DNA of 64,000 nucleotides from positions 32,001-96,000 of the IMG/VR virus record IMGVR_UViG_3300032307_000764. The stretch is one strand, 5' to 3'. The DNA is from a virus. Lineage: Duplodnaviria; Caudoviricetes. Position 1 is the first letter of the stretch. Every line of letters starts with the position of its first letter. The notes beneath the pieces are model-generated. The model was not told where the DNA came from. It ran no database searches and saw only the letters and a list, made by a program, of their open reading frames with translations. Of the stretch, positions 25,872 to 37,377 are shown piece after piece. A program made the translations under genes and the position numbers.

Positions 25872-26759
25872 ATGGGATTAGTAAATAGAGATAAATTAGA
25901 AAAACCAAATATTGAGATCTCTCACTATCTAGGTGTCGTGGTTGATAATAAAGATCCCGAATTTAGAGGAAGAGCTAAAATTAGAGTATTTGGTATTTTC
26001 GACGAGATCCCCGATGCAGATCTACCTTGGTCACATCAAAGGTTTGAGCAAAGCTACGGATTAAACGGAGGATCTGGAAGAATGTCTGTTCCTAAATTAG
26101 GATCGGTTGTTCATGTACAATTTAATAACGGGAATTTTTATAGTCCTGAATATAAAGCTGTTCAGGAATTATCACCTGATTTGATAGATGAGATCAGAGC
26201 AAGTTACGATGGGGCTCATTCCGTAATCTATGATGGTATAGAAAGGCTTAAGATGTATTACACTGTAGAGAAAGGAATGGTGATAGACCTTAAGGATTCT
26301 AAAATTATAATAAGGAATGATAATTCTATACTAATAACTCACGCTGATGATACCGCTTCTATCGAGTTAAAAGGTGGGAAGATAACAAAATATGCAGATC
26401 AAGAAATAGAGAACACTGCAGTTACAAGAATTAAACATTCTTCAGAGGAAGTTTGGATGGACGGTAAGACTACAAATCTTGGACACTCTCCGGTTTTTTC
26501 TGCTGTTTGCGCTGAGCCTTTATGGGATTTTCTTAAAAAATTAGCGATATCAGTAGACAGTAAAATGCCAGCAAGTCCTGGAGTTAATTCAACCTTAGCA
26601 TCTAGTTTTGAACAACTAGCTACAAGTCAAACTGTAAGAGTTACACGTGAAAATACACCAGATCTTCCTGCTGTACCTGCTCAAAATAATTTCCCTGTTT
26701 CTTTACCTGCTACTGGAGCTGCTGGTACGACCGGAGCTACAGGAACAACTGGAGGATAA
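25872..26759 (+). CDS. Baseplate central spike, T4 gp5/VgrG-like (OB fold plus short beta-helix, no lysozyme domain)
   Basis: YLGVVVDNKDPEFRGRAKIRVFG...LPW and VPKLGSVVHVQFNNGNFYSPEY are gp5 N-terminal OB-fold motifs. Confidence 0.85.
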   Translation: MGLVNRDKLEKPNIEISHYLGVVVDNKDPEFRGRAKIRVFGIFDEIPDADLPWSHQRFEQSYGLNGGSGRMSVPKLGSVVHVQFNNGNFYSPEYKAVQELSPDLIDEIRASYDGAHSVIYDGIERLKMYYTVEKGMVIDLKDSKIIIRNDNSILITHADDTASIELKGGKITKYADQEIENTAVTRIKHSSEEVWMDGKTTNLGHSPVFSAVCAEPLWDFLKKLAISVDSKMPASPGVNSTLASSFEQLATSQTVRVTRENTPDLPAVPAQNNFPVSLPATGAAGTTGATGTTGG

Positions 26760-26761
26760 AG

Positions 26762-29700
26762 ATGGCAGGAGATAATAGCATAGAATCTAGAATAGACCAA
26801 TTACTTTCTAAGGATTTTAGTAAGGTTAGTACTAGTGAGATAATAAGTCTAATCACTGGAGGACAGGACATAAATCAGCCTTATGTTGATATGCAATCTG
26901 AATCTGGATTTGATTCTGAGCTTAATAAAAGCCAAGAGCAGGTCGATTCCATAATTAGTAGTCTAGAACCTGGACCTCCTCCTATACCAATTGAAAAAAT
27001 AGAAGAACTAGCCTGTAATTTTGAAGGTGATGAACTTTATAGTAGAATACTACTGGAAAGTGTTAGAATTAATGATTCTAAGCTTTACAGATCTCTGCTT
27101 AATTCTAGCGCATTAAAGCAAAGAAGTTTTAGTGCCGAAGATCTAGGTATCAAAACACAAATAAAGTCTCTTAAAACTAATAAAAAGCTCCCTTCTGAAG
27201 GTATAGTTAGCTTCCTAAAAGAGAATAATAATTCTTTATTAGAAAAAATTAATGAAAAGCTTTTTGATAATGTTGATCCTCTACTAGTAGGTAAACCTTC
27301 AAATTCTGGTTCAAAGAAGAAAAGAGAGATTAATATTCTAGGATTTAAAATACCTCTGGAATTTATCATGTCCGGTAAAAAGATTGTGCATGTTAAAATT
27401 GGAGGAGAGGAAAAAACTAATAAACAAGCTTTAGAAGATATTAATTCTATTCTAGCCAAACAAAATCAAGGAGCAAAACCTTGTGATTTCGACGGTGTAG
27501 ATGAAAATACAAATTCCGAGAGAATAGATGAATATGATTCAAATTTCTTTCCTGACGGTGATGATCCTATACTAGATCCTGATTGTGACACTGGTATTCC
27601 TGAGGATCCTATTACCGGAGATCCTATATCAACTAGAGAATCGTTCGAGGATATACAGGAAGATTTTTGTGATCCTCCCGCTTATGATTTTTCTGGACTA
27701 AATCCGGATGACCCTGATCCAGAGCCATCACCTGTTGATGTTGATTCTATACAAGCATGTATGGATTCAGCATTAGCGAAAACTAAAAAAATAGACGATG
27801 ATAGTAAACTTCTTGCAAGATGGCAGAATATCGAGAAGAGCTTAGATGAGATTTATTACCATTATGATGTAGTTTGGGAATACCAAAGAACTTTAGCAGA
27901 GACATGGAGAGCTAGAGTTCCTGTTTCTGATGGGGGAGATCCTAAAAATTTAGATCTAGCTATACAGATATTAACTTATAATGATCAGGAAGAGATAAAA
28001 TCAGGGGAGATAATATTACAGGAGGAGAAATTAAATAATGATAAGATATTATTTCTAGAAAACAATCCTTTGCTTACTGATAATATATTTACGTTCAGTG
28101 TTTTAGATGCGGAAAATTCAGAGAATCTTACTGATGCTGAACTTGGAGAAATTTTCTCTTTCCTTGCTGATGCTAATAAATCTCCCGTAGAATATGATAC
28201 TGAAAGTCAATCTTATCCTATCCAGAAAGGCGTGGATTCTTTTAGAGAAAATCTTGAATCAATAGTAGCTATATTAATACAAGATAATTTTATAGAATCC
28301 CTTAAAACCGAGAGAGATGAAATAAAAGCTTTAAAAGAGTCAACATTACAAACTTTAGTAGATAGAAAAGGTGCTCCTATAACAATTGCAGATCTTGAGG
28401 CTGGGTTTAAAATAACGAATGCGGAAATTAATGACCCCTATGGACAAGGATCAGAGCAGAAAGAAAAAAATGCTAAGGTTTTTGATAATGTTATTTTGCC
28501 AACTTATACCTATGATTCGTATGGGTATCAATTTCTACAGGATTTAAAAAAATTCTCAGTTAGATTCAAGGATACTAAATTTGATAAGGATATAGGAGAA
28601 CTCAAATTTACACTTGCTTTTATGAGCGATTTTGGTATGCCCATTCCTTATAAAAAAGTTAAAAAATCCGGAAAAATATCATTAAAGGAAACTGGTACCG
28701 ATACTTTGGAAGAAGTTAACGAACCAGATCAGGATAAAATAAAAATTGGTAACGAACACGCTTCTGGTGGATTACTAATCAATTTTACTCCTTATTATTT
28801 GCAGAGTTATCAATATTTAACTATCGATAATATTAAAACTGGTCAACCTGATGTTGCTGAATTCTATAATTACATTGATTCTGTTGTAAATACTAGTGAT
28901 TCGAAACAATCCATTATTAACAAAATAATAGAAGATCGTGGTATTTTGTACGGACAACTTATAGAAAAGTCATCGTCAAATTGGCTGTTCTTTACGGCAG
29001 AAGAAAGAGGTGATAACGATTCGAGGGATCCTTCAAAATTAAGACCTTCAAGTTTTAATGCTGAGGGTGAACCTACACCGGTATTTACTGAATTTTATGG
29101 AAATTTTAAGCCTAAATGGGATGCTAAGTATAAATTGAACAGAGAAACCTATATTGATCCTGCTCTCTCTAGTTTAAAAGAACAGGCTAGAAAAGCAGGT
29201 GAAGGACTAGGAAACACGTTACCAACTTCTGACCAGATAGGTGTTCGTATTTTTGAAAACTATTTTGACACTAAGAAAAAAATTGAACAGATAGAGGAGA
29301 TTATACTTTATGCTGCACAAAGGAGAACTGAGATAGAGGAATCATTAAAACCCGAAAATATAGAGAAATCGTTTTCTGATATTAAATGTTCTAGTGAACA
29401 AACTAGTCCCGATGATCCTGAAAATTGTCCTCCTGTTTGTTGTGGTGAGCCGGGATCTGATTTTAAAACAGATAATTATTTACTTTCTCTACCACCAAGT
29501 TCTGATTGTCCTACGATGTTCCAGAAATGCTGGTGGAAACAATTTTCAAAAGATTTAACCAAAGTTGGATTGTTGCCTTATCCTAATGGATTACCTCCTA
29601 TTGAAGATACCAAGTATTTTTTAACCCCCGGGCCTTCGGTTAGATTAGGATTAAAATATTGGCCGGTCGGATATCTTCCGCCATCTTTTATTCCTATCCC

Positions 29701-31861
29701 TATCGCTAATCCTATCGACGGTCAGCCTTTTATTAGGATACCTCTTCCCATGATATGGACTATAATAAACCCTATCGTAATACCTTTACCCTTAAATCTA
29801 GGTATACTTGTTATATTTATACCATTAATAGGTGGTTTTATGCCTACTCCTTTAGTTTATCTTAAAGAGTTTATAGGGGGTAATTCTTTATTTCTTACGG
29901 GGATAAGAGGTCCTAGATTTATACCTAGAAAATCCGACCCGGAATTGAAGGATCCGTTGGAAAAAATAAAGCAACTTTTGTCCTTTGGTGTTCCTGATAA
30001 ATTAATTCCCCTGCCTGGCTTTGGACTGGATAACTTGGATTCTCCTAATAGAATAATGGCGGATCTTCAATCTAACCTAACTAAAATATTTGATAGTGTT
30101 CCTGCTCCTGGTAATTTAGATCAGTTAAGGCAGTTACAAGATAAAGAATTAGAGATCAAGAAAAAGATAGACGACGAAACTAAGAATTATTTAAAGAAGG
30201 AAGCTTTACTTGATATACCTAAGCCTGATTTAGAGAAACAGAAAGAGGAACTAAAAAACTTAATTACCTCTAGAAAAAATGCTCTTAAGCAGGTTATAAT
30301 GGATTATATCGACAAAGGAATACCAGATCCTAAAGCTGTATATTTTCCCAAAGATAAAGACAAGCTTAAGATTGACATTTCTGGGATCGTAAAATCGTTA
30401 AGGATACTAAAGGAAATGAAAGCAAGTTTTGTTCCTATTAAATGTTCAGGAACTATAGATTTCAAAGATGAGATACGCGAGGTTCTTAAACTTTTAAAAA
30501 TCCCTACTCCCCCTCAGTATATCCTTGATAACTTTAATGTATCTAATGCTAATAAGATTTTCCTAAAATCTAACAAGGATCCAAGATTAATGACTGATGA
30601 GGAATTTAGGAATTTAGTTTTAGAAATAAGAGGAACCTCCTTAATAATAACTCAGATACTACTTAAAGGAAATAGATTCTCTGTTCTTAAAAAAATCAGG
30701 AAGGGAGCATTCTCAATAACTGAAGAATGTGAGCTCCAAGGAACATTTGCTTTCCCTGCAGTTAAGCTGACAAATTCTGCTCCTCTCCCTTTGAAATTCC
30801 TAAGAAAAGGCGATCCAGTATTAAATGCCATGTATCTTAGAATTATGGAAGGAATGGCTAAGATAGAATACACTAGAGAAGATTTTGCTAGATATGTTAG
30901 GTATTTTGGGGAATCACCTGAATTAGTAATCAGGGTTAAAGATTTAAAGAAACTGGTTTCTAAAAAAATAGGATTAAGTAAAAGAGGTCCTTTCGATCCA
31001 GTTAGACCGATAGATCTAGAGGAACCTTTGATATCTAACTATCCACATCCAGAAGGTCCTTTATGTTGCCTAGAATCTTTAAATGGAGGGTTTGGTAATG
31101 CTATAGCAGCATTTGAGCTTCCTACTGTATTTCCAGTAAAACAGGATCAAATAACACAAACTCCAGGAGCTGGTGGTATAATACAGGTTACTATACCTGG
31201 ATCTAAAATAAAGGATTTTATAAAAACTTCAGTAGGAAAGCTTTTGGATTCAGGAGCTTTAGAAAGTTTATTACCAGAAATAGGAGATGTGGATTCTCCT
31301 AAATTTACTAATCTTGATCCGAATGATATACAGAAAATAGCAAGAAATTTAGTTAGAGATGTACTTAATCCTGAATCACCTAATATTCCGGAATTCTTGA
31401 ACATAACTAAAATACCGGTTCTTCCACCTGCTAGACCCACTGATTTAATAGAACAAGCACTAATTGGTATGGGAGCACCTCCTCCAGCAAGAATAGTTTA
31501 TAGCCTATTCTGGAAATATTTTAAAAGCACTCCGAAAACACCTTTAAGTGATAAAATAACATTGCCTACAATAGAGATATCTTCGAATATCCTAAGTAAA
31601 ATACCTTGGCCGTTGACGGTTTTAATTGGAAGAAATCTATTAAATATCATCAACCCTATAGCTATGTCAGATGACCATCCGGTATGGAGAAGAATGAGCC
31701 TTAAGAATCCTTATTATGTTGTTTACTTAGATGAGTTCTTAAGAAGTGCTTCTGATGTTTCTGGACTGTATAAATTTTTCCTCGGTGCTGCTGATCCAAC
31801 GTATCCTATACCTGAATTACCTTCGGAGCTAAAAAAGGCATTTAATGTGAAAAAATATTAA
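26762..31861 (+). CDS. Very large hypothetical protein (1699 aa), probably virion-associated
   Basis: Uninterrupted ORF starting 2 nt after the spike gene; acidic Cys-containing N-terminal half, Pro-rich hydrophobic segment, basic C-terminal half. Confidence 0.8.
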   Translation: MAGDNSIESRIDQLLSKDFSKVSTSEIISLITGGQDINQPYVDMQSESGFDSELNKSQEQVDSIISSLEPGPPPIPIEKIEELACNFEGDELYSRILLESVRINDSKLYRSLLNSSALKQRSFSAEDLGIKTQIKSLKTNKKLPSEGIVSFLKENNNSLLEKINEKLFDNVDPLLVGKPSNSGSKKKREINILGFKIPLEFIMSGKKIVHVKIGGEEKTNKQALEDINSILAKQNQGAKPCDFDGVDENTNSERIDEYDSNFFPDGDDPILDPDCDTGIPEDPITGDPISTRESFEDIQEDFCDPPAYDFSGLNPDDPDPEPSPVDVDSIQACMDSALAKTKKIDDDSKLLARWQNIEKSLDEIYYHYDVVWEYQRTLAETWRARVPVSDGGDPKNLDLAIQILTYNDQEEIKSGEIILQEEKLNNDKILFLENNPLLTDNIFTFSVLDAENSENLTDAELGEIFSFLADANKSPVEYDTESQSYPIQKGVDSFRENLESIVAILIQDNFIESLKTERDEIKALKESTLQTLVDRKGAPITIADLEAGFKITNAEINDPYGQGSEQKEKNAKVFDNVILPTYTYDSYGYQFLQDLKKFSVRFKDTKFDKDIGELKFTLAFMSDFGMPIPYKKVKKSGKISLKETGTDTLEEVNEPDQDKIKIGNEHASGGLLINFTPYYLQSYQYLTIDNIKTGQPDVAEFYNYIDSVVNTSDSKQSIINKIIEDRGILYGQLIEKSSSNWLFFTAEERGDNDSRDPSKLRPSSFNAEGEPTPVFTEFYGNFKPKWDAKYKLNRETYIDPALSSLKEQARKAGEGLGNTLPTSDQIGVRIFENYFDTKKKIEQIEEIILYAAQRRTEIEESLKPENIEKSFSDIKCSSEQTSPDDPENCPPVCCGEPGSDFKTDNYLLSLPPSSDCPTMFQKCWWKQFSKDLTKVGLLPYPNGLPPIEDTKYFLTPGPSVRLGLKYWPVGYLPPSFIPIPIANPIDGQPFIRIPLPMIWTIINPIVIPLPLNLGILVIFIPLIGGFMPTPLVYLKEFIGGNSLFLTGIRGPRFIPRKSDPELKDPLEKIKQLLSFGVPDKLIPLPGFGLDNLDSPNRIMADLQSNLTKIFDSVPAPGNLDQLRQLQDKELEIKKKIDDETKNYLKKEALLDIPKPDLEKQKEELKNLITSRKNALKQVIMDYIDKGIPDPKAVYFPKDKDKLKIDISGIVKSLRILKEMKASFVPIKCSGTIDFKDEIREVLKLLKIPTPPQYILDNFNVSNANKIFLKSNKDPRLMTDEEFRNLVLEIRGTSLIITQILLKGNRFSVLKKIRKGAFSITEECELQGTFAFPAVKLTNSAPLPLKFLRKGDPVLNAMYLRIMEGMAKIEYTREDFARYVRYFGESPELVIRVKDLKKLVSKKIGLSKRGPFDPVRPIDLEEPLISNYPHPEGPLCCLESLNGGFGNAIAAFELPTVFPVKQDQITQTPGAGGIIQVTIPGSKIKDFIKTSVGKLLDSGALESLLPEIGDVDSPKFTNLDPNDIQKIARNLVRDVLNPESPNIPEFLNITKIPVLPPARPTDLIEQALIGMGAPPPARIVYSLFWKYFKSTPKTPLSDKITLPTIEISSNILSKIPWPLTVLIGRNLLNIINPIAMSDDHPVWRRMSLKNPYYVVYLDEFLRSASDVSGLYKFFLGAADPTYPIPELPSELKKAFNVKKY

Positions 31862-31894
31862 TTTCTTGGAAATTTTAATACATACCAATACTAC

Positions 31895-31916: not shown

Positions 31917-33029
31917 ATGAAAAATAAAAACTATAGCTGCTTCGAATATACTGCAGAAGAAAGAGAAAAGCTGGAATCGCTTTATAGCAAATCTTTTCCT
32001 GAACAAACTGTAAATTTTTCTGGAAAGGATTTACAGCAAAACAGTTCTGAAAGAATTCTAATCACTGATTTTGATCAGAGTAAAGGAGTTGCTTTAGGTG
32101 AAACCCCTTTTGGACAAACCATTATCATAGATACTAAGAAGGAAGAAAAGCACATGAGAAAGCTTGGATATCCTGCAATAGAAATAACACCAGGACAAGT
32201 TCTTGATGTTGTTATACACAGAGATCTTTCGGGATCTTTCAACGGTTCAGTTTCTGCTGGATACGAAAAAGCGCTTAAAGCTGAATTGCACAGATCTATT
32301 AAAGACGAGGATTGTGCATTTAAAGTTAGAGTTAAGAATGTTTGTAACGGAGGATTCATGGTGGATCTTTCGGGAATCGAATGTTTCTTACCTGGAAGTT
32401 TAGCAGCGGCTAATAGAATTATGAATTTCGCAGACTATGTTGGCAAACAATTAACAGTCATGGTTGAGATTTATGATCAGAAAAGAGATATCTTCGTTGT
32501 TTCATTCAAAAAATATTTGAAGAAAATTATTGATGGAGAAGCTAGAGGACTTTCTTTCTCTAATAAATATCAAGGAAATGTTACAGGAGCTTCCGGTAAT
32601 GGAGTTTTTGTTGAATGGGATGAGATCTTCACTGGTATAATTCCTATCGATGATTCTAATAGAGAAAAATTATTAGATTTAAAAACAGGTGATTCTGTTG
32701 AATTCTATGTAACAGACATTAAAAATCCGCAAAGAATAGTACTTTCTTTACTTGAACCAAATGAAAAACTCCGAACAATTCAGAAATTAAAAGATTCTTC
32801 TGCTGAAGCTTTAGGGGAAAATACTGAATTGCAAATATATAAAGGAGAGGTTACCAAGTTAAAGACATTCGGTGTATTCGTTAAACTTGAAAATGGTTTA
32901 TCAGGATTGATCGAAAAAGAGAAATTGGTTAACCCTATTAAAGATTATGAGGTTGGTCAATTGGTTAATTGCTCGATCTCGAGTGTGGATTTATCCTCAC
33001 TTAAAATACAATTAATAGAGCAAGAATAA
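31917..33029 (+). CDS. rpsA: Ribosomal protein S1 homologue (about 4 S1 domains; start revised to ATG 31917)
   Basis: GGFMVDLSGIECFLPGS and VEIYDQKRDIFVVSFKK match RpsA domain 2; GNVTGASGNGVFVEW and GEVTKLKTFGVFVKLENGLSGLI are further S1 domains. Confidence 0.85.
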   Translation: MKNKNYSCFEYTAEEREKLESLYSKSFPEQTVNFSGKDLQQNSSERILITDFDQSKGVALGETPFGQTIIIDTKKEEKHMRKLGYPAIEITPGQVLDVVIHRDLSGSFNGSVSAGYEKALKAELHRSIKDEDCAFKVRVKNVCNGGFMVDLSGIECFLPGSLAAANRIMNFADYVGKQLTVMVEIYDQKRDIFVVSFKKYLKKIIDGEARGLSFSNKYQGNVTGASGNGVFVEWDEIFTGIIPIDDSNREKLLDLKTGDSVEFYVTDIKNPQRIVLSLLEPNEKLRTIQKLKDSSAEALGENTELQIYKGEVTKLKTFGVFVKLENGLSGLIEKEKLVNPIKDYEVGQLVNCSISSVDLSSLKIQLIEQE

Positions 33030-33030
33030 A

Positions 33031-34473
33031 TTGGCTAATTTACTTTCTAATGATTTTTTCTACTCAGCAAAATTAGGGTTTGAATTTGAGTTCTATAGCA
33101 ACTTAAATAGAACAGAGATAGCGGACGGATTAGGGAAAGAACTAGGAAAGAAAATACTTCTTTTTAACAAATATCATTCTAATTTTAAGCCTACTAAGGA
33201 TATCTTTAAATTAGAACCAGATTACTCAGGAGGATCCAAGATGGTCGAAATGATCACGGGTCCTCTTCCTTATTTTGAGGCAATTGCTATTTTAATTAAA
33301 ACCTTAAGATGGATAGATCTAAACGGATATACTGATAAAAAATGTGCTTTCCAGTTTGGTGTTAGTATAGACACTTCAATCTTTCCTGATGTACCTCCGG
33401 TTACCCAACTTAATATACTCAAGTTTATTCTAGGTTTTGATGAGAATGTTATCTATAAAAGATTCCCAGATAGAACTAATTCTCTTTATGCTAAATCAAT
33501 AAAAAGAATTCTTCCATCTAATAAGTTTGTAGACCCATCGAATATTTCTTTTATTGATAAGAATTTATTTGAAGTACCATTAGAAAAAAATATGGGCATA
33601 AACTTTTTAAAATTACCTGAGGGTTATTTTGAAGTTAGATATCTAGGAGGTGCTGATTACCAAAAAAGATATAGTGCAATTAAGGAAGTTATAGATTACA
33701 TAATTACCTATGCAGTACAAACATTAAAAACAAATGACGGATTTTCTGATAACGATCTAAAAATCTTAAAGATGTTCTTAGGCGAGATTTACAAAAACTC
33801 GTCAACCTTTATTACCCCGGAAGCTTTCCAGAAAAACTATCCTCATATGAATATTATGATTGATATGAGATCAGATACACAGATTCTTAGGTCTTTCTTC
33901 TTAAACATTAGGGAAGTTCTTTACGATTTAATAGTTGAGAATAATATCAAAGAGGGATTAGTTAATTATGATAGTAATCTAGGTAAATTTCAGTTAAAAG
34001 AAGTTAAAACTTCAAGAGCATATCTTTTGAAAGACTACGATATTCTTGAAAGTGAATTGACCGGTAATATTTTTAATTGCAGATTGTTCAATTGTAAGAT
34101 CAACGACAGTACATTAGAAGAATGTGATTTACTTACGAATAACGAAGTTTATAGATCGAAGATAATGTATTCTGATGTAATGTTCAGTAACGTTGTTCAC
34201 GACAGCTATATAGACAATAAAGACAAAGAAATAAACTGTGAAGTTTATGGAGGTATTATCAGATCTGGATTTATTGGTAAGTTAGCTACACTTTCTCCTG
34301 AAACTGAGGTTGTAAAAGATGCTGAAGATGATAAAAAAATGAAAGGAAGTTCTAAGAAATTGAAATTCCCTAACAGAAATGAATCAGATGCTTTAACTAG
34401 TCCTATTAAGTTTAGTAACAATAACAGTAAGCCATCAGGAATCCCTGGTATAAACTTCAAACCAAATAATTAA
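33031..34473 (+). CDS. Putative amidoligase (Amidoligase_2, COOH-NH2 ligase-like), divergent
   Basis: LGFEFEF, EPDYS, EMITGPL and FEVRY motifs; the usual CGxHxH segment reads CAFQFG; TTG start 1 nt after the S1 stop. Confidence 0.65.
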   Translation: MANLLSNDFFYSAKLGFEFEFYSNLNRTEIADGLGKELGKKILLFNKYHSNFKPTKDIFKLEPDYSGGSKMVEMITGPLPYFEAIAILIKTLRWIDLNGYTDKKCAFQFGVSIDTSIFPDVPPVTQLNILKFILGFDENVIYKRFPDRTNSLYAKSIKRILPSNKFVDPSNISFIDKNLFEVPLEKNMGINFLKLPEGYFEVRYLGGADYQKRYSAIKEVIDYIITYAVQTLKTNDGFSDNDLKILKMFLGEIYKNSSTFITPEAFQKNYPHMNIMIDMRSDTQILRSFFLNIREVLYDLIVENNIKEGLVNYDSNLGKFQLKEVKTSRAYLLKDYDILESELTGNIFNCRLFNCKINDSTLEECDLLTNNEVYRSKIMYSDVMFSNVVHDSYIDNKDKEINCEVYGGIIRSGFIGKLATLSPETEVVKDAEDDKKMKGSSKKLKFPNRNESDALTSPIKFSNNNSKPSGIPGINFKPNN

Positions 34474-34478
34474 CTGTA

Positions 34479-35258
34479 ATGACAGAAGCAGATTTAATTC
34501 AAGAGGTAAAAGATGAAATATCTCACTCTTGTTCGCTACCTTACAATCTTAACGACCAGGAGATAAAAAGGATCATTAAAAGAGCTAGAGCTTATTTTTA
34601 TGATAATTATCAATATGCGGTAGAGGATAGAATATTTGTTTTGGGTAAAGAATTATTTTCTGCACCTGCTTTTAGAGCTACAAGACAAATCCAACTACCC
34701 TCTTGTGTGGTATCTGTTTATGATGTTCGGGAAGTAAACGGATCGGGACTTATTGGTACACCAGATAAAGACTTCGGTGATTCTAAATTATTAGGATCGG
34801 AGCTTATGCTTTCACCATTCGTTGGCGATAACTTAGTTTATAGAACGGTTCTTTATTCATTCTTCGATTTAGCTAAAGCTTATTTATTAGAGAGTTTTGC
34901 ATTTAATTATAACAAAAACACTAAAAGATTAACAATTCTTGGTAGAGACCCAGCAAGAACTAATACTACTGATGCTGGAACTACACAGGTACTTTATACT
35001 GGTATAGACGTTGGTGTTAAAGCATGTATTGCTATTCCTGAAGAAAATCTATACGATGACGAATTATTTGTTAGATATTGCCTGGCAGAAGCTAAAATAA
35101 ACATAGGTAGATTATTAGGAACATTCGAATATAACCTTCCGGGGGGTGTTCGTGTAAACTATAATAATATACAAACTTTAGGAACTACAGAAAAGCAGGA
35201 GATCATCCAAATGATAAAAGACGAGAATACTCCTTCTTACTTCTTACAGTGGAACTAA
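34479..35258 (+). CDS. Neck (head-tail adaptor) protein, T4 gp13-like
   Basis: IKRARAYFYDNY and RYCLAEAKINIGRLLGTFEYNLPGGVRVN match the gp13-like C-terminal LPGG motif. Confidence 0.75.
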   Translation: MTEADLIQEVKDEISHSCSLPYNLNDQEIKRIIKRARAYFYDNYQYAVEDRIFVLGKELFSAPAFRATRQIQLPSCVVSVYDVREVNGSGLIGTPDKDFGDSKLLGSELMLSPFVGDNLVYRTVLYSFFDLAKAYLLESFAFNYNKNTKRLTILGRDPARTNTTDAGTTQVLYTGIDVGVKACIAIPEENLYDDELFVRYCLAEAKINIGRLLGTFEYNLPGGVRVNYNNIQTLGTTEKQEIIQMIKDENTPSYFLQWN

Positions 35259-35679: not shown

Positions 35680-37377
35680 ATGGATTTATTAGAAAAAAAC
35701 AAAGCCAAAATATCGGATCTTATAAGCCAAACCTTTGACCTTATACAGGCAAGATATGGAATGTCAGATCAGCTTTTTACTGTAGCTTCAGTTTGGGGTC
35801 AGATTATATTTGTACTTGATAACTTATCTCAGTTTATTCTATTCTTTATAGAGGATTCGATTACTGAGCTAAACATTAACACCGCGACAAGGGAATCTTC
35901 AATATATGGTTTATCAGCTTTAGCTGGACACAATCCAACAAGAGCAATAGCAGCAAAGGGTGAGGTAGTTATAACGTGGAACGGAAAAGGATTCGAAAAC
36001 GTAGGTGGAAGCGCAGTTTTAGTTCCTAATAATTCACAACTGAAATGTATAAATAACGGTAAGACCTACTTACTAAAGCTAGCACAGGAATATACAAGAT
36101 TAAACTTAGATCCAGCTTCTAAACTTATAGCTTCTATCGTAGAAGGAACAATTAATACCAACCAATATACTGGTACTGGATTAAAATTACAAAGTTATAA
36201 CGTATCTGCCAGAGGTACTTCAAGTATAGAGAACTTCGAGGTTGACGTTAAGGTTAACGGGGAGTCTTGGAATAAGTATGATTCTTTATACGATATTCCT
36301 AGAAACGGAAAAGGATTTATTGTTAAATCCTCTATAATTTCAGGTATAGATATTTTCTTTGGGACTATAGATTTTGGTCTTCCTCCAGCTGCTGGATCGG
36401 TTATTCAGGTTAATTATCTAGAATGTACTGGATCTTCAGGTAACGTATTGGTAGAAGATTCATCTCAAGCTATTTTTAGATTTGATGCTGACGGAACAGA
36501 CCTATTTGGATCTAGTGTTACCCTTCAGGATGTTCTCCAGGTTTCGTGCTCTATCGCACCTCAGCTAGGAGCGAACCAAGAGTCAGTAGATTTAACTAGA
36601 CTTATAGCTCCTAAGACCTCTAGAAGTTTTGTACTTGCTAACCCGACTAATTATATTACATTCTTTGAAAAGTTTGGACAATTTTCTATAATAGAGGCAT
36701 TCACAACATTTAACGATCAATACCTTGATGACGACAATATTATTTATTTAATACTTGTACCTGATATTCAATTGACTTTAAAAAGCAACGAAACGTATTT
36801 TGATGTTCCCCTTTCTAGGTTCAAATTAACTCAGTCTCAAATAGATAGGATTTATCAATTATTAGATGAGAGCGGACAAAAAATAGTTACTACGGTAGTT
36901 AAAGTATTAGATCCAGTTTTAACCCGATATGTTGTTAATATAGCTATTACTATTTTTGAAGGATATGATCCAGATACTATCAAGAGTCAAATCGTCAGTA
37001 TACTTAGCGACTATTTCTTAAATATTAGAAGGAGAGATAAAATTCCTAGATCTGATTTGATTGCTGCTATAGAAGGTATAACAGGAATAGATTCGGTTTC
37101 TTTATATTTCGTTGGTGAAGAAAACGAAGCAGCAAAAGCACAGAATGCTAATTCACCAGAAATAGGATTTGATGAATTTGGAGATATAACTATGAGCAGC
37201 GATGAAATAGTGGTTATATCTGGGGGTTGGGAAGACCGAAATGGTATTTATTATGATTATGGAGCAAGCATGAATACTTTATCATCGGTTAATATTGATG
37301 TTAGAGCTATAGTACCAGTAACATACAATACTAAGGTTAATAACATACTAAAAAGCTCATTAAAAACAGGAAATTAA
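35680..37377 (+). CDS. Baseplate wedge protein, T4 gp6/baseplate J-like
   Basis: TATRESSIYGLSALAGHNP, SLYDIPRNGKGFIVK...DIFFGTIDFG..P, NYLECTGSSGN and VLANPTNY motifs; follows gp25. Confidence 0.8.
   Translation: MDLLEKNKAKISDLISQTFDLIQARYGMSDQLFTVASVWGQIIFVLDNLSQFILFFIEDSITELNINTATRESSIYGLSALAGHNPTRAIAAKGEVVITWNGKGFENVGGSAVLVPNNSQLKCINNGKTYLLKLAQEYTRLNLDPASKLIASIVEGTINTNQYTGTGLKLQSYNVSARGTSSIENFEVDVKVNGESWNKYDSLYDIPRNGKGFIVKSSIISGIDIFFGTIDFGLPPAAGSVIQVNYLECTGSSGNVLVEDSSQAIFRFDADGTDLFGSSVTLQDVLQVSCSIAPQLGANQESVDLTRLIAPKTSRSFVLANPTNYITFFEKFGQFSIIEAFTTFNDQYLDDDNIIYLILVPDIQLTLKSNETYFDVPLSRFKLTQSQIDRIYQLLDESGQKIVTTVVKVLDPVLTRYVVNIAITIFEGYDPDTIKSQIVSILSDYFLNIRRRDKIPRSDLIAAIEGITGIDSVSLYFVGEENEAAKAQNANSPEIGFDEFGDITMSSDEIVVISGGWEDRNGIYYDYGASMNTLSSVNIDVRAIVPVTYNTKVNNILKSSLKTGN

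What the first reader, a model, noticed from the sequence alone, without database searches (positions are those of the whole stretch)
31917..33029. Phage ribosomal protein S1 homologue embedded in the tail/baseplate gene block
Seen: a 370-aa protein with about four S1 domains (an RpsA D2-like signature plus two canonical RNA-binding-type domains), preceded by AATAAATA and flanked by structural genes. Established: bacterial bS1 is usually six domains, docks by D1-D2 and captures A/U-rich mRNA leaders; S1 homologues have been reported in huge phages. Inference: a late-expressed, shortened S1 that replaces or competes with host bS1 to favour the phage's SD-less A-rich late mRNAs, or is packaged into the virion.
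Basis: partly seen in the sequence, partly recalled or inferred. Interest (0 to 1): 0.72.

Follow-up and report, generated by a model that had tools for sequence, protein, structure and literature searches.

The report
Phage S1-like ribosome-docking protein
An uncultured 248-kb freshwater phage, and hundreds of its relatives, keep a shortened four-domain copy of ribosomal protein S1 at a fixed place among their baseplate genes. The copy retains the features that anchor S1 to the ribosome, so it most likely lets the phage steer host ribosomes toward its own A-rich messages, an idea already raised for huge phages but never tested.

Summary
Window 31917-33029 (+) encodes a 370-aa protein with an N-terminal helix and four S1/OB domains. 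These align in order with domains D1-D4 of bacterial bS1, including the D2 signature. It sits between a baseplate hub gene, a 1699-aa protein, and neck and wedge genes.

- **Family.** It belongs to a large, phage-only clade of 340-440-aa S1-like proteins. The clade includes the "possible rpS1" genes of published huge phages (LR756500 and others, Lak phages). It is separated from Bacteroidota bS1 by a long branch.
- **Docking features.** The helix carries the Bacteroidota-type motif (EY[ST]xxE...[LM]xxxY). The invariant OB1 loop and OB2 are conserved. A predicted complex with a Bacteroidota uS2 passed (ipSAE 0.64, best control 0.01) at the interface solved for E. coli. This shows likeness, not binding.
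- **Leaders.** Gene leaders across the genome lack Shine-Dalgarno motifs and are A-rich.
- **Not reported in the papers I searched.** The gene's place in the module is fixed down to about 31-37% identity. In 80 of 80 IMG/VR loci it is followed, often overlapped, by a glutamine-synthetase-fold amidoligase gene.
- **Untested.** Expression timing, virion packaging and real 30S binding. The protein has no capsid-targeting tag.

Verdict: a new member of a known kind, of moderate interest. First readers of this scan noted the same family in another genome.

The parts
31917..33029 (+). Gene for the 370-aa phage bS1-like protein (P0001)
   Evidence: ORF and translation. Pfam S1 at 2e-19. rpsA models match collinearly but far below their cut-off. 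More than 120 near-full-length relatives at 51-96% identity on contigs up to 320 kb.
31941..31997 (+). N-terminal extension and helix (residues 9-27, FEYTAEEREKLESLYSKSF), the putative uS2-docking helix
   Evidence: Helix 13-26 in the model. The motif EY[ST]xxE...[LM]xxxY is shared with 31 Bacteroidota bS1. Y11 and Y23 are invariant and L19 is L or M in 51 of 51 members. Residues 19, 23, 7 and 8 touch uS2 F32 in the predicted complex.
32043..32249 (+). OB1 (residues 43-111), a diverged D1 with an extra conserved loop ETxFGQ(S/T) at 62-68
   Evidence: Model. Model residues 17-202 superpose on E. coli bS1 3-174 (Z 14.1, rmsd 4.6 over 170 residues). E62, G66 and Q67 are invariant. Loop 65-68 touches uS2 residues 203-207 in the predicted complex.
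32319..32504 (+). OB2 (residues 135-196), D2-like, the most conserved domain
   Evidence: phmmer aligns query 87-202 to E. coli bS1 59-175 with GGFxVxLxGIxxFLPGSL shared. 28 of 62 positions are invariant. F147 and F157 correspond to E. coli F120 and F130, described in PMC10123108 as an mRNA-facing pocket.
32565..32747 (+). OB3 (residues 217-277), an S1 domain with a partly eroded RNA-binding signature
   Evidence: Model. Model 14-280 corresponds to E. coli bS1 2-261. F231, D267 and R273 are conserved. The counterparts of the first aromatic residue and of the His are not (positions read by eye against the S1 consensus).
32835..33020 (+). OB4 (residues 307-368), a canonical S1 domain
   Evidence: Best Pfam S1 stretch, 306-360. 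Model 282-370 superposes on M. tuberculosis S1 domain 4 (Z 12.2, rmsd 2.7) and on E. coli residues 264-350. F318, F321 and K363 are invariant and D358 nearly so. The usual His is an invariant Glu, E333.
31866..31876 (+). Conserved upstream motif TTGGAAATTTT, 51 nt before the ATG
   Evidence: TG[GA]AAAT[TC] lies 49-53 nt upstream in most of the 31 of 53 non-redundant family loci that have it, against about 3% background. It is not a general motif of this genome. Its function is unknown.
33031..34473 (+). Downstream partner gene: a 480-aa glutamine-synthetase-fold amidoligase with a pentapeptide-like beta-helix. It has a TTG start one base after the S1-like stop codon.
   Evidence: Pfam Amidoligase_2 matches 5 of 8 members (best 3.4e-6). 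Invariant GxExE, HS, EPDxSGG and ExRY motifs. The fold matches glutamine synthetase, gamma-Glu-Cys ligase and YbdK weakly, and pentapeptide-repeat proteins. It lies downstream of the S1-like gene in 80 of 80 IMG/VR loci, and at -23 to +4 nt in 58 of them.
25872..26759 (+). Baseplate hub or spike-like gene (context)
   Evidence: phrog_430 baseplate hub at 1.5e-14. Pfam Phage_base_V at 2.8e-4, just below its cut-off.
26762..31861 (+). 1699-aa protein of no known family directly upstream (context)
   Evidence: No family hit. Its position is conserved in 75 of 80 loci.
34479..35258 (+). T4 gp13-like neck protein gene (context)
   Evidence: phrog_211 at 1.2e-7. Its counterparts in other loci carry Pfam Phage_T4_gp13.
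35680..37377 (+). Baseplate wedge (J/gp6-like) gene (context)
   Evidence: phrog_219 at 4e-22, Pfam Baseplate_J weak. tblastn relatives are Lak and other megaphages and phages of Flavobacterium, Tenacibaculum, Chryseobacterium and Sphingomonas.

Best explanation
The gene encodes a phage-adapted paralogue of ribosomal protein bS1. It is cut down to the N-terminal docking helix plus four OB domains, the counterparts of D1-D4.

Proposed mechanism:
1. The helix (L19, Y23) and the conserved OB1 loop (E62, F65, G66, Q67) seat the protein on uS2 of the host 30S subunit. This is the site that the exchangeable host bS1 uses, so the two would compete for it.
2. OB2 keeps the aromatic pocket that faces the 5' side of the mRNA. 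OB3 and OB4 supply single-stranded RNA binding.
3. Ribosomes carrying the phage protein would then load the phage's A-rich, Shine-Dalgarno-less leaders.
4. The host is probably a member of Bacteroidota, where initiation relies on such leaders.
5. The gene is probably transcribed with the baseplate genes, and so made in bulk when structural proteins are needed.

Shown: the architecture, the conserved residues, the synteny and the leader composition. Model only: the uS2 interface. Inferred: competition with host bS1, mRNA selectivity and timing.
For: - **bS1 descent.** The best sequence matches in PDB and NCBIfam are all bS1 and are collinear. The family HMM covers Bacteroidota bS1 D1-D4 in one stretch (HMM 62-368 to residues 52-372). 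It scores 48-65 bits for most Bacteroidota bS1, against 34 for an Acinetobacter rpsA and 23 for a rpsA-like fragment filed as a Listeria phage.
- **Fold.** The top Foldseek and VIA matches are ribosome-bound E. coli bS1. Model 17-202 equals residues 3-174 (Z 14.1, rmsd 4.6 over 170 residues) and model 14-280 equals residues 2-261 (Z 13.1).
- **Docking helix.** The motif is shared with 31 Bacteroidota bS1. E. coli F5 and F9 are essential for S2 binding (PMC4288201, PMC10123108). Their counterparts L19 (L or M) and Y23 (invariant) are the conserved positions of an otherwise variable helix.
- **Predicted complex.** With a Bacteroidota uS2 the ipSAE is 0.64 and the best of 3 controls is 0.01. That mark was reached by 58 of 80 solved complexes and 2 of 110 mismatched pairs. 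The runs agree in at least 93% of contacts and the partner's pLDDT is at least 82. uS2 F32 touches residues 7, 8, 19 and 23. uS2 zinc-pocket residues 203-207 touch loop 65-68. A like complex is solved, so this pass shows likeness only.
- **Conservation.** The invariant OB1 residues (E62, G66, Q67) fall in that predicted interface. OB2 is the most conserved domain, with 28 of 62 positions invariant.
- **Leaders.** Across the genome GGAG occurs upstream of 3.9% of genes against 5.7% background. A reaches 65% at position -11, and AATAA occurs in 27% of leaders against 4.9%.
- **Host clues.** Structural relatives infect Prevotella, Flavobacterium, Tenacibaculum and Chryseobacterium. A related phage contig was binned in a Saprospirales MAG.
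- **Literature.** Al-Shayeb et al. 2020 (PMC7162821) saw the same link between possible phage rpS1 genes and missing Shine-Dalgarno sites.
Against: - No experiment or expression data exist.
- The protein scores far below every rpsA equivalog cut-off.
- It sits on a stem of 1.66 changes per site outside cellular bS1, so its function may have shifted.
- E. coli K43 has no clear counterpart, because the OB1 loop has different chemistry.
- OB3 lacks two of the five canonical RNA-binding positions, and OB4 has Glu in place of the His.
- The fixed place inside the baseplate module and the coupling to an amidoligase gene are not explained by a plain translation factor.
- If it serves host takeover, late synthesis would be odd.
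- The host is not identified, so the uS2 used was a stand-in.
Confidence: 0.55

Rival explanations
1. Virion cargo. The protein is made late, built into the tail or baseplate (or head), and delivered with the DNA. The first phage transcripts would then meet ribosomes already carrying phage S1. This is compatible with ribosome docking and differs only in when and where the protein acts.
For: The gene holds a fixed place between hub and wedge genes, down to about 31-37% identity. A takeover factor made late only helps the next infection if it is packaged. Other proteins of this genome carry capsid-targeting-like tags, so cargo delivery exists here (earlier notes; tag re-derived).
Against: The N-terminus does not fit this genome's tag MKHIKLFEQF (rank 186 of 311). 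There is no virion proteome. In Lak phages and three other megaphages the S1-like gene lies more than 100 kb from the wedge gene, so a structural link is not universal. The phage would need thousands of copies to reprogram a cell, far more than a tail could carry.
Confidence: 0.15
2. Targeting subunit or substrate of the downstream amidoligase. The S1-like protein brings the glutamine-synthetase-fold ligase to the ribosome or to an RNA, or is itself modified by it. The pair would then remodel a host or phage component.
For: The amidoligase gene follows in 80 of 80 IMG/VR loci and in five more distant loci. It sits at -23 to +4 nt in 58 of 80, often with a TTG start abutting the S1-like stop, which suggests coupled translation. 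The catalytic-type motifs are invariant. Among database phages the ligase is found only in the six megaphages that also carry the S1-like gene, even where the two are unlinked.
Against: All these phages are related, so co-occurrence may be shared descent. Lak phages have the S1-like gene but gave no ligase match. No binding test was run. The S1-like C-terminus is not conserved in the way a RimK-type substrate tail would be. The ligase could serve the baseplate instead.
Confidence: 0.15
3. Dominant-negative blocker. The protein occupies the uS2 site but binds mRNA poorly, shutting off host translation that depends on bS1.
For: The docking elements are better conserved than the RNA-binding signature of OB3, and D5-D6 are missing.
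Against: The phage's own leaders lack Shine-Dalgarno motifs and are A-rich, so they should need S1 function too. OB4 keeps both aromatic residues and the basic residue.
Confidence: 0.08
4. Structural baseplate protein in which S1-type OB folds were re-used as building blocks, with no role in translation.
For: Its position is in the baseplate module. OB folds do occur in hub proteins.
Against: The conserved residues are those of the bS1 docking helix, the loop and D2, not of a new interface. Cultured relatives with the same wedge protein lack the gene.
Confidence: 0.05

Closest known systems
Bacterial ribosomal protein bS1 (RpsA), especially the Bacteroidota form
   Same: N-terminal docking helix with the Bacteroidota-type motif. 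D1-D2 pair with the GGFxVxLxGxxxFLPGS signature. S1 domains follow in the same order. Acidic overall (pI 5.4). Predicted to use the same uS2 surface.
   Different: Four domains instead of six. Scores 85.6 bits against a 577-bit equivalog cut-off. OB1 carries an extra conserved loop in place of the K43 loop. The RNA-binding signature of OB3 is eroded and OB4 has Glu for His. It forms a separate, long-branched, phage-only clade. It is encoded in a baseplate module.
'Possible rpS1' genes of huge phages (Al-Shayeb et al. 2020, PMC7162821; records LR756500-504, LR745206) and of Lak phages
   Same: Same clade in my tree (support 100) with the same D2 motif. LR756500 keeps the gene in the same module with the amidoligase about 1.3 kb downstream. 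The genomes lack Shine-Dalgarno sites.
   Different: Identity is only 25-35%. In Lak phages and in LR756501 and LR756504 the gene is more than 100 kb from the wedge gene. The Lak copy appears to have three domains. That paper gave no architecture, docking analysis or synteny.
bS1 of Microcystis jumbo phage PhiMa05 (PMC13157829)
   Same: A phage-encoded bS1 homologue proposed to replace the host protein.
   Different: According to that paper it was acquired from a Vampirovibrio-like host and sits with other ribosomal protein genes. It is an independent acquisition, not this family. I did not compare the sequences.
Four-domain S1 of low-GC Gram-positive bacteria (NCBIfam NF005208)
   Same: About 390 aa with four S1 domains. 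It matches collinearly at 2e-23.
   Different: That form is known (from general knowledge) to bind ribosomes weakly and to lack the Gram-negative-type role. The phage protein instead shares the Bacteroidota N-terminal motif. The rpsA-like fragment filed as a Listeria phage scored lowest against the family HMM (23 bits).
Host bS1 recruited by phages (Q-beta replicase subunit; T4 RegB activation)
   Same: The D1-D2 surface that binds uS2 also binds the Q-beta replicase, so phages already exploit this module.
   Different: Those phages borrow the host protein. Here the phage encodes its own.

Membership tests
Ribosomal protein bS1 (RpsA) | N-terminal helix with two hydrophobic or aromatic residues four apart that stack on uS2 (E. 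coli F5, F9) | tested here: met
   L19 (L or M in 51 of 51) and Y23 (invariant) align with Bacteroidota [LM]xxxY and with Acinetobacter/E. coli FxxxF. They touch uS2 F32 in the predicted complex.
Ribosomal protein bS1 (RpsA) | D1-D2 pair with the D2 signature GGFxVxLxGxxxFLPGS | tested here: met
   phmmer aligns query 87-202 with E. coli 59-175. VIA gives Z 14.1 over residues 3-174.
Ribosomal protein bS1 (RpsA) | Loop-2 lysine (E. coli K43) inserted into the uS2 zinc pocket | tested here: inconclusive
   Sequence alignment is ambiguous between E76 and K75. In the predicted complex a different conserved loop (F65-G66-Q67-T68) fills the pocket.
Ribosomal protein bS1 (RpsA) | C-terminal S1 domains with the canonical RNA-binding residues (two aromatics, His, Asp, Arg/Lys) | tested here: inconclusive
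   OB4 keeps 4 of 5, with His replaced by an invariant Glu. OB3 keeps 3 of 5 (positions assigned by eye).
Ribosomal protein bS1 (RpsA) | Score above the curated equivalog cut-off | tested here: not met
   TIGR00717 gives 85.6 bits against 577. All other rpsA models are also far below their cut-offs.
Ribosomal protein bS1 (RpsA) | Six S1 domains (Gram-negative type) | tested here: not met
   Four OB domains in 370 aa.
Ribosomal protein bS1 (RpsA) | Physical association with the 30S subunit and a role in initiation | not testable with these tools
   Only a predicted complex is available.
Phage S1-like clade (huge-phage 'possible rpS1') | Groups with the S1-like proteins of LR756500, LR745206, LR756501 and Lak-A2 to the exclusion of cellular bS1 | tested here: met
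   One clade with SH-aLRT 100 in a quick IQ-TREE run of 73 rows. Bacteroidota bS1 forms its own clade with support 89. Outgroups were few.
Phage S1-like clade (huge-phage 'possible rpS1') | Genome without Shine-Dalgarno sites | tested here: met
T4-type capsid-targeted cargo | N-terminal tag of this genome (MKHIKLFEQF-like) | tested here: not met
   PSSM score -26, rank 186 of 311.

The most novel reading that the evidence does not exclude
The S1-like gene and the translationally coupled glutamine-synthetase-fold amidoligase form one two-gene device kept in the baseplate module. The S1-like protein docks on uS2 next to the mRNA exit and positions the ligase there. The ligase then covalently modifies a ribosomal component or mRNA near that site. 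The pair may be carried in the virion so that it acts from the first minute of infection.
Probability: 0.1. Interest if true: 0.85.

Novelty: new member of a known kind. Interest (0 to 1): 0.5.

Why it matters
Phage-encoded S1 has been listed in huge-phage surveys but set aside as ambiguous, because S1 domains are everywhere.

This work shows that one large phage family keeps the specific elements that anchor bS1 to uS2, and keeps them in a Bacteroidota-type form. That turns the idea that phages swap in their own S1 into a testable claim with named residues (L19, Y23, the 62-68 loop).

It also bears on how translation starts without Shine-Dalgarno pairing in Bacteroidota.

The constant pairing with an amidoligase inside the baseplate module is unexplained. 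It could point to a ribosome- or virion-modifying activity.

Tried and rejected
- **PHROGs.** No family matches the S1-like protein.
- **Phage records.** Megablast of the region against phage records found nothing.
- **AATAAATA and T4-type TATAAATA.** Neither is enriched in the window, so I rejected them as promoter evidence.
- **Promoter and terminator scan.** The sigma-70 and terminator scan around the gene gave nothing above shuffles.
- **Capsid-targeting tag.** Absent from this protein.
- **bS21.** No gene found in this 85%-complete record.
- **tRNAs.** None in the window.
- **Sequencing runs.** No RNA holder is listed, so nothing can be said about expression. I did not lay reads.
- **PDB entry 'Ribosomal protein S1 homologue' (28jw/9tvu).** It is the Chlamydomonas chlororibosome protein and is irrelevant.
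- **Jumbo-phage review PMC7824862.** It mentions neither the S1 gene nor this ligase.
- **Iyer et al. 2009 on amidoligases.** Not held.
- **Donor phylum.** The tree had only Bacteroidota plus two other bacterial sequences, so the donor is not resolved.
- **Complex prediction.** The single job went to uS2, so the pairing of the S1-like protein with the amidoligase was not modelled.
Full report
**The object.** Window 31917-33029 (+) is an open frame of 370 codons starting MKNKNY. A TTG 51 nt upstream would add 17 residues. That extension is not kept in relatives, and in some of them it is closed by a stop codon, so the ATG is the start. The window lies in an IMG/VR virus record of 248,191 bp estimated at 85% complete. 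Its GC content is 34% and nearly all its genes are on one strand.

**Is it an S1 protein, and of which kind?**
- Pfam finds the S1 domain at 2e-19 in three stretches.
- Every strong NCBIfam hit is a 30S ribosomal protein S1 model. The match is one collinear stretch, residues 88-366 against model positions 56-340 of TIGR00717. It scores 85.6 bits against a cut-off of 577.
- Against PDB sequences the best hits are E. coli bS1. Residues 87-202 align with E. coli 59-175, the end of D1 and all of D2, and share GGFxVxLxGIxxFLPGSL.
- An AlphaFold2 model built on 51 family members (pLDDT 84.7, pTM 0.60) has an N-terminal helix at 13-26 and four OB domains at 43-111, 135-196, 217-277 and 307-368.
- Foldseek ranks ribosome-bound E. 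coli bS1 first (4e-22).
- VIA-align puts model 17-202 on bS1 3-174 (Z 14.1, rmsd 4.6 over 170 residues) and model 14-280 on bS1 2-261 (Z 13.1). OB4 falls on domain 4 of the M. tuberculosis and E. coli proteins (Z 12.2 and 10.5).

The four domains are the positional counterparts of D1-D4.

**Surroundings.**
- Upstream lie a hub or spike-like gene (phrog_430; Phage_base_V just below its cut-off) and a 1699-aa protein of no known family.
- Downstream lie a 480-aa protein, a T4 gp13-like neck protein and a 123-aa protein. The positional counterpart of the 123-aa protein in another locus has a weak GPW_gp25 hit.
- After those comes a baseplate wedge (J-like) protein.
- The wedge protein's relatives are LR756500, Lak and other megaphages. 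More distant ones are cultured phages of Flavobacterium, Tenacibaculum, Chryseobacterium and Sphingomonas.

**The family.**
- A word-indexed search gave 431 hits. More than 120 are about 370 aa long at 51-96% identity, on contigs up to 320 kb.
- An exhaustive search of 50%-identity representatives gave 1924 hits at E of 1e-3 or better. Almost all of the best 150 are 325-440 aa.
- In a tree of 73 rows (quick IQ-TREE), three groups form one clade with support 100 on a stem of 1.66 changes per site: the jumbo-phage family, the S1-like genes of LR756500, LR745206, LR756501 and Lak-A2, and the unlabelled representatives.
- 29 Bacteroidota bS1 form a separate clade with support 89.
- The protein is thus neither a recent capture nor a non-ribosomal S1-domain protein. 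It is an old, phage-specific offshoot of bS1.
- The donor phylum is not resolved, because I had only two non-Bacteroidota bacterial sequences.
- The family HMM scores Bacteroidota bS1 higher than the others: 48-65 bits for most, collinear over D1-D4, against 34 for an Acinetobacter rpsA and 23 for a rpsA-like fragment filed as a Listeria phage.

**Docking features.**
- Experiments on E. coli show that bS1 is anchored by F5 and F9 of its N-terminal helix, which stack on uS2 F32. Mutating either residue abolishes binding.
- K43 of loop 2 enters the uS2 zinc pocket and plays a minor part. OB2 residues K117, F120 and F130 face the mRNA (PMC4288201, PMC10123108).
- The 31 Bacteroidota bS1 that I extracted begin their helix with EY[ST]xxE...[LM]xx[LM]Yxx[ST][LF]. 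The phage family has FEYTAEEREKLESLYSKSF at the same place. The Acinetobacter protein starts directly with the FxxxF helix and lacks the EY extension.
- Within the family the helix is variable, except for Y23 (invariant), L19 (L or M), Y11, E15 and R16.
- In OB1 the invariant residues include E62, G66 and Q67, in a loop that bacterial D1 lacks.
- OB2 is the most conserved part, with 28 of 62 positions invariant. These include F147 and F157, the counterparts of F120 and F130.

**Predicted complex with uS2.**
- I folded residues 1-212 (as an alignment) with a Bacteroidota uS2 (an alignment of 16). The ipSAE was 0.64 (runs 0.64, 0.60 and 0.72) and the best of three controls was 0.01.
- That mark was reached by 58 of 80 solved complexes and 2 of 110 mismatched pairs. 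The runs agree in at least 93% of contacts, and the partner's pLDDT is at least 82.
- uS2 F32 touches residues 7, 8, 19 and 23. uS2 residues 203-207 touch loop 65-68.
- This is the interface solved for E. coli, so the pass may come from the model's memory. It shows likeness, not binding, and the uS2 was a stand-in for an unknown host.
- The residues that the family holds invariant are the ones at this interface, and that observation does not depend on the model.

**RNA-binding half and leaders.**
- Read by eye against the S1 consensus, OB4 keeps both aromatic residues (F318, F321), the Asp (D358) and the basic residue (K363). It has an invariant Glu (E333) where His usually stands.
- OB3 keeps F231, D267 and R273 but not the first aromatic residue or the His.
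- Across the genome, upstream regions show no Shine-Dalgarno enrichment (GGAG in 3.9% against 5.7% background). They are A-rich from -14 to -1, with A at 65% at -11 and AATAA in 27% against 4.9%.
- This pattern, the hosts of the structural relatives and a related phage contig binned with a Saprospirales MAG all point to a Bacteroidota host. None of them is proof.
- The leader finding agrees with Al-Shayeb et al. 2020. They reported possible rpS1 genes in huge phages that rarely have Shine-Dalgarno sites, and noted that true rpS1 is hard to confirm. Mizuno et al. 2019 left S1 out for that reason.

**Not described in the papers I searched.**
- *Fixed position.* The order hub, large protein, S1-like, roughly 430-480-aa protein, gp13-like, roughly 120-aa protein, J-like recurs in loci whose S1-like proteins are only 31-37% identical. 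It also recurs, with insertions, in LR756500. In 80 IMG/VR loci the order is never permuted. In Lak phages and in LR756501 and LR756504 the S1-like gene is far from the wedge gene. Cultured relatives lack it.
- *Downstream gene.* It is always an Amidoligase_2 protein. Pfam matches 5 of 8 members (best 3.4e-6). The GxExE, HS, EPDxSGG and ExRY motifs are invariant. The fold matches glutamine synthetase, gamma-Glu-Cys ligase and YbdK weakly, and the C-terminus is a pentapeptide-like beta-helix. It follows in 80 of 80 loci and sits at -23 to +4 nt in 58 of them. It often has a TTG start abutting the S1-like stop, as in this window. Among database phages it occurs only in the six megaphages that also have the S1-like gene. 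Because these phages are all related, this does not prove a functional tie.
- *Upstream motif.* TG[GA]AAAT[TC] lies 49-53 nt upstream of the start in most of the 31 of 53 non-redundant loci that have it, against about 3% background. It is not a general motif of this genome. With TACTAC or TACTAA 17 nt downstream it could be a weak -35/-10 pair, which would make timing independent of the baseplate operon. This is unresolved.

**Packaging.** Earlier notes of this scan reported a capsid-targeting-like tag on many proteins of this genome. I re-derived it (MKHIKLFEQF-like). The S1-like N-terminus does not fit it (rank 186 of 311). This does not exclude delivery through the tail.

**Verdict.**
- Supported: descent from bS1, retention of the docking surface and Shine-Dalgarno-less leaders.
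- Untested: late timing, mRNA preference and packaging.

The thing is a member of the already reported class of phage S1 homologues, now with a defined architecture and named docking residues. Two features remain unexplained: the baseplate address and the coupled amidoligase.

Noticed in passing
window 33031-34473 (+): A 480-aa protein with a glutamine-synthetase-fold amidoligase domain (invariant GxExE, HS, EPDxSGG and ExRY motifs), a pentapeptide-like beta-helix and a disordered basic tail. Its TTG start lies one base after the S1-like stop. It sits downstream of the S1-like gene in 80 of 80 related loci. Its substrate is unknown.
   Followed up: partly
window 31866-31876 (+): A conserved non-coding motif, TTGGAAATTTT, 51 nt upstream of the S1-like start. 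It is found at 49-53 nt in most of the 31 of 53 non-redundant relatives that have it, and it is not a general motif of this genome. TACTAC lies 17 nt downstream, so it may be a gene-specific promoter or an autoregulatory site.
   Followed up: partly
window 26762-31861 (+): A 1699-aa protein of no known family directly upstream of the S1-like gene. Its position is conserved in 75 of 80 loci, but its length varies widely in distant relatives (422 to 1710 aa).
   Followed up: no
window 34479-35258 (+): A T4 gp13-like neck protein gene sits inside the baseplate run, between the amidoligase and the gp25-like and J-like genes, in every related locus.
   Followed up: no
L006 (CALAZP010000190.1, 64-kb contig of a Saprospirales MAG): This contig of a bacterial MAG carries the same phage module (S1-like, amidoligase, gp13-like, 123 aa, J-like). 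It is a phage contig binned with a Bacteroidota genome, which is a weak host hint.
   Followed up: partly
L046 (CAKLQH020000011.1), L047 (OR847547.1), hit H9 (OR845856.1): Three records filed as Acinetobacter, Listeria and Escherichia phages hold ordinary-looking rpsA sequences. In the Acinetobacter record rpsA sits between cmk and himD, as on a chromosome. They look like bacterial DNA filed as phage, not phage S1 genes.
   Followed up: partly
L048 (Prevotella phage Lak-A2, 2509-3627): The Lak S1-like protein reads through under TAG=Gln. It appears to have only three OB domains followed by an acidic tail, and no amidoligase match was found in Lak genomes.
   Followed up: no
G000, outside the window (e.g. 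window coordinates 76606, 164307, 166298, 189066): Several unrelated proteins start with MKHIKLFEQF-like peptides. This is the capsid-targeting-like tag that earlier notes reported for this genome.
   Followed up: partly
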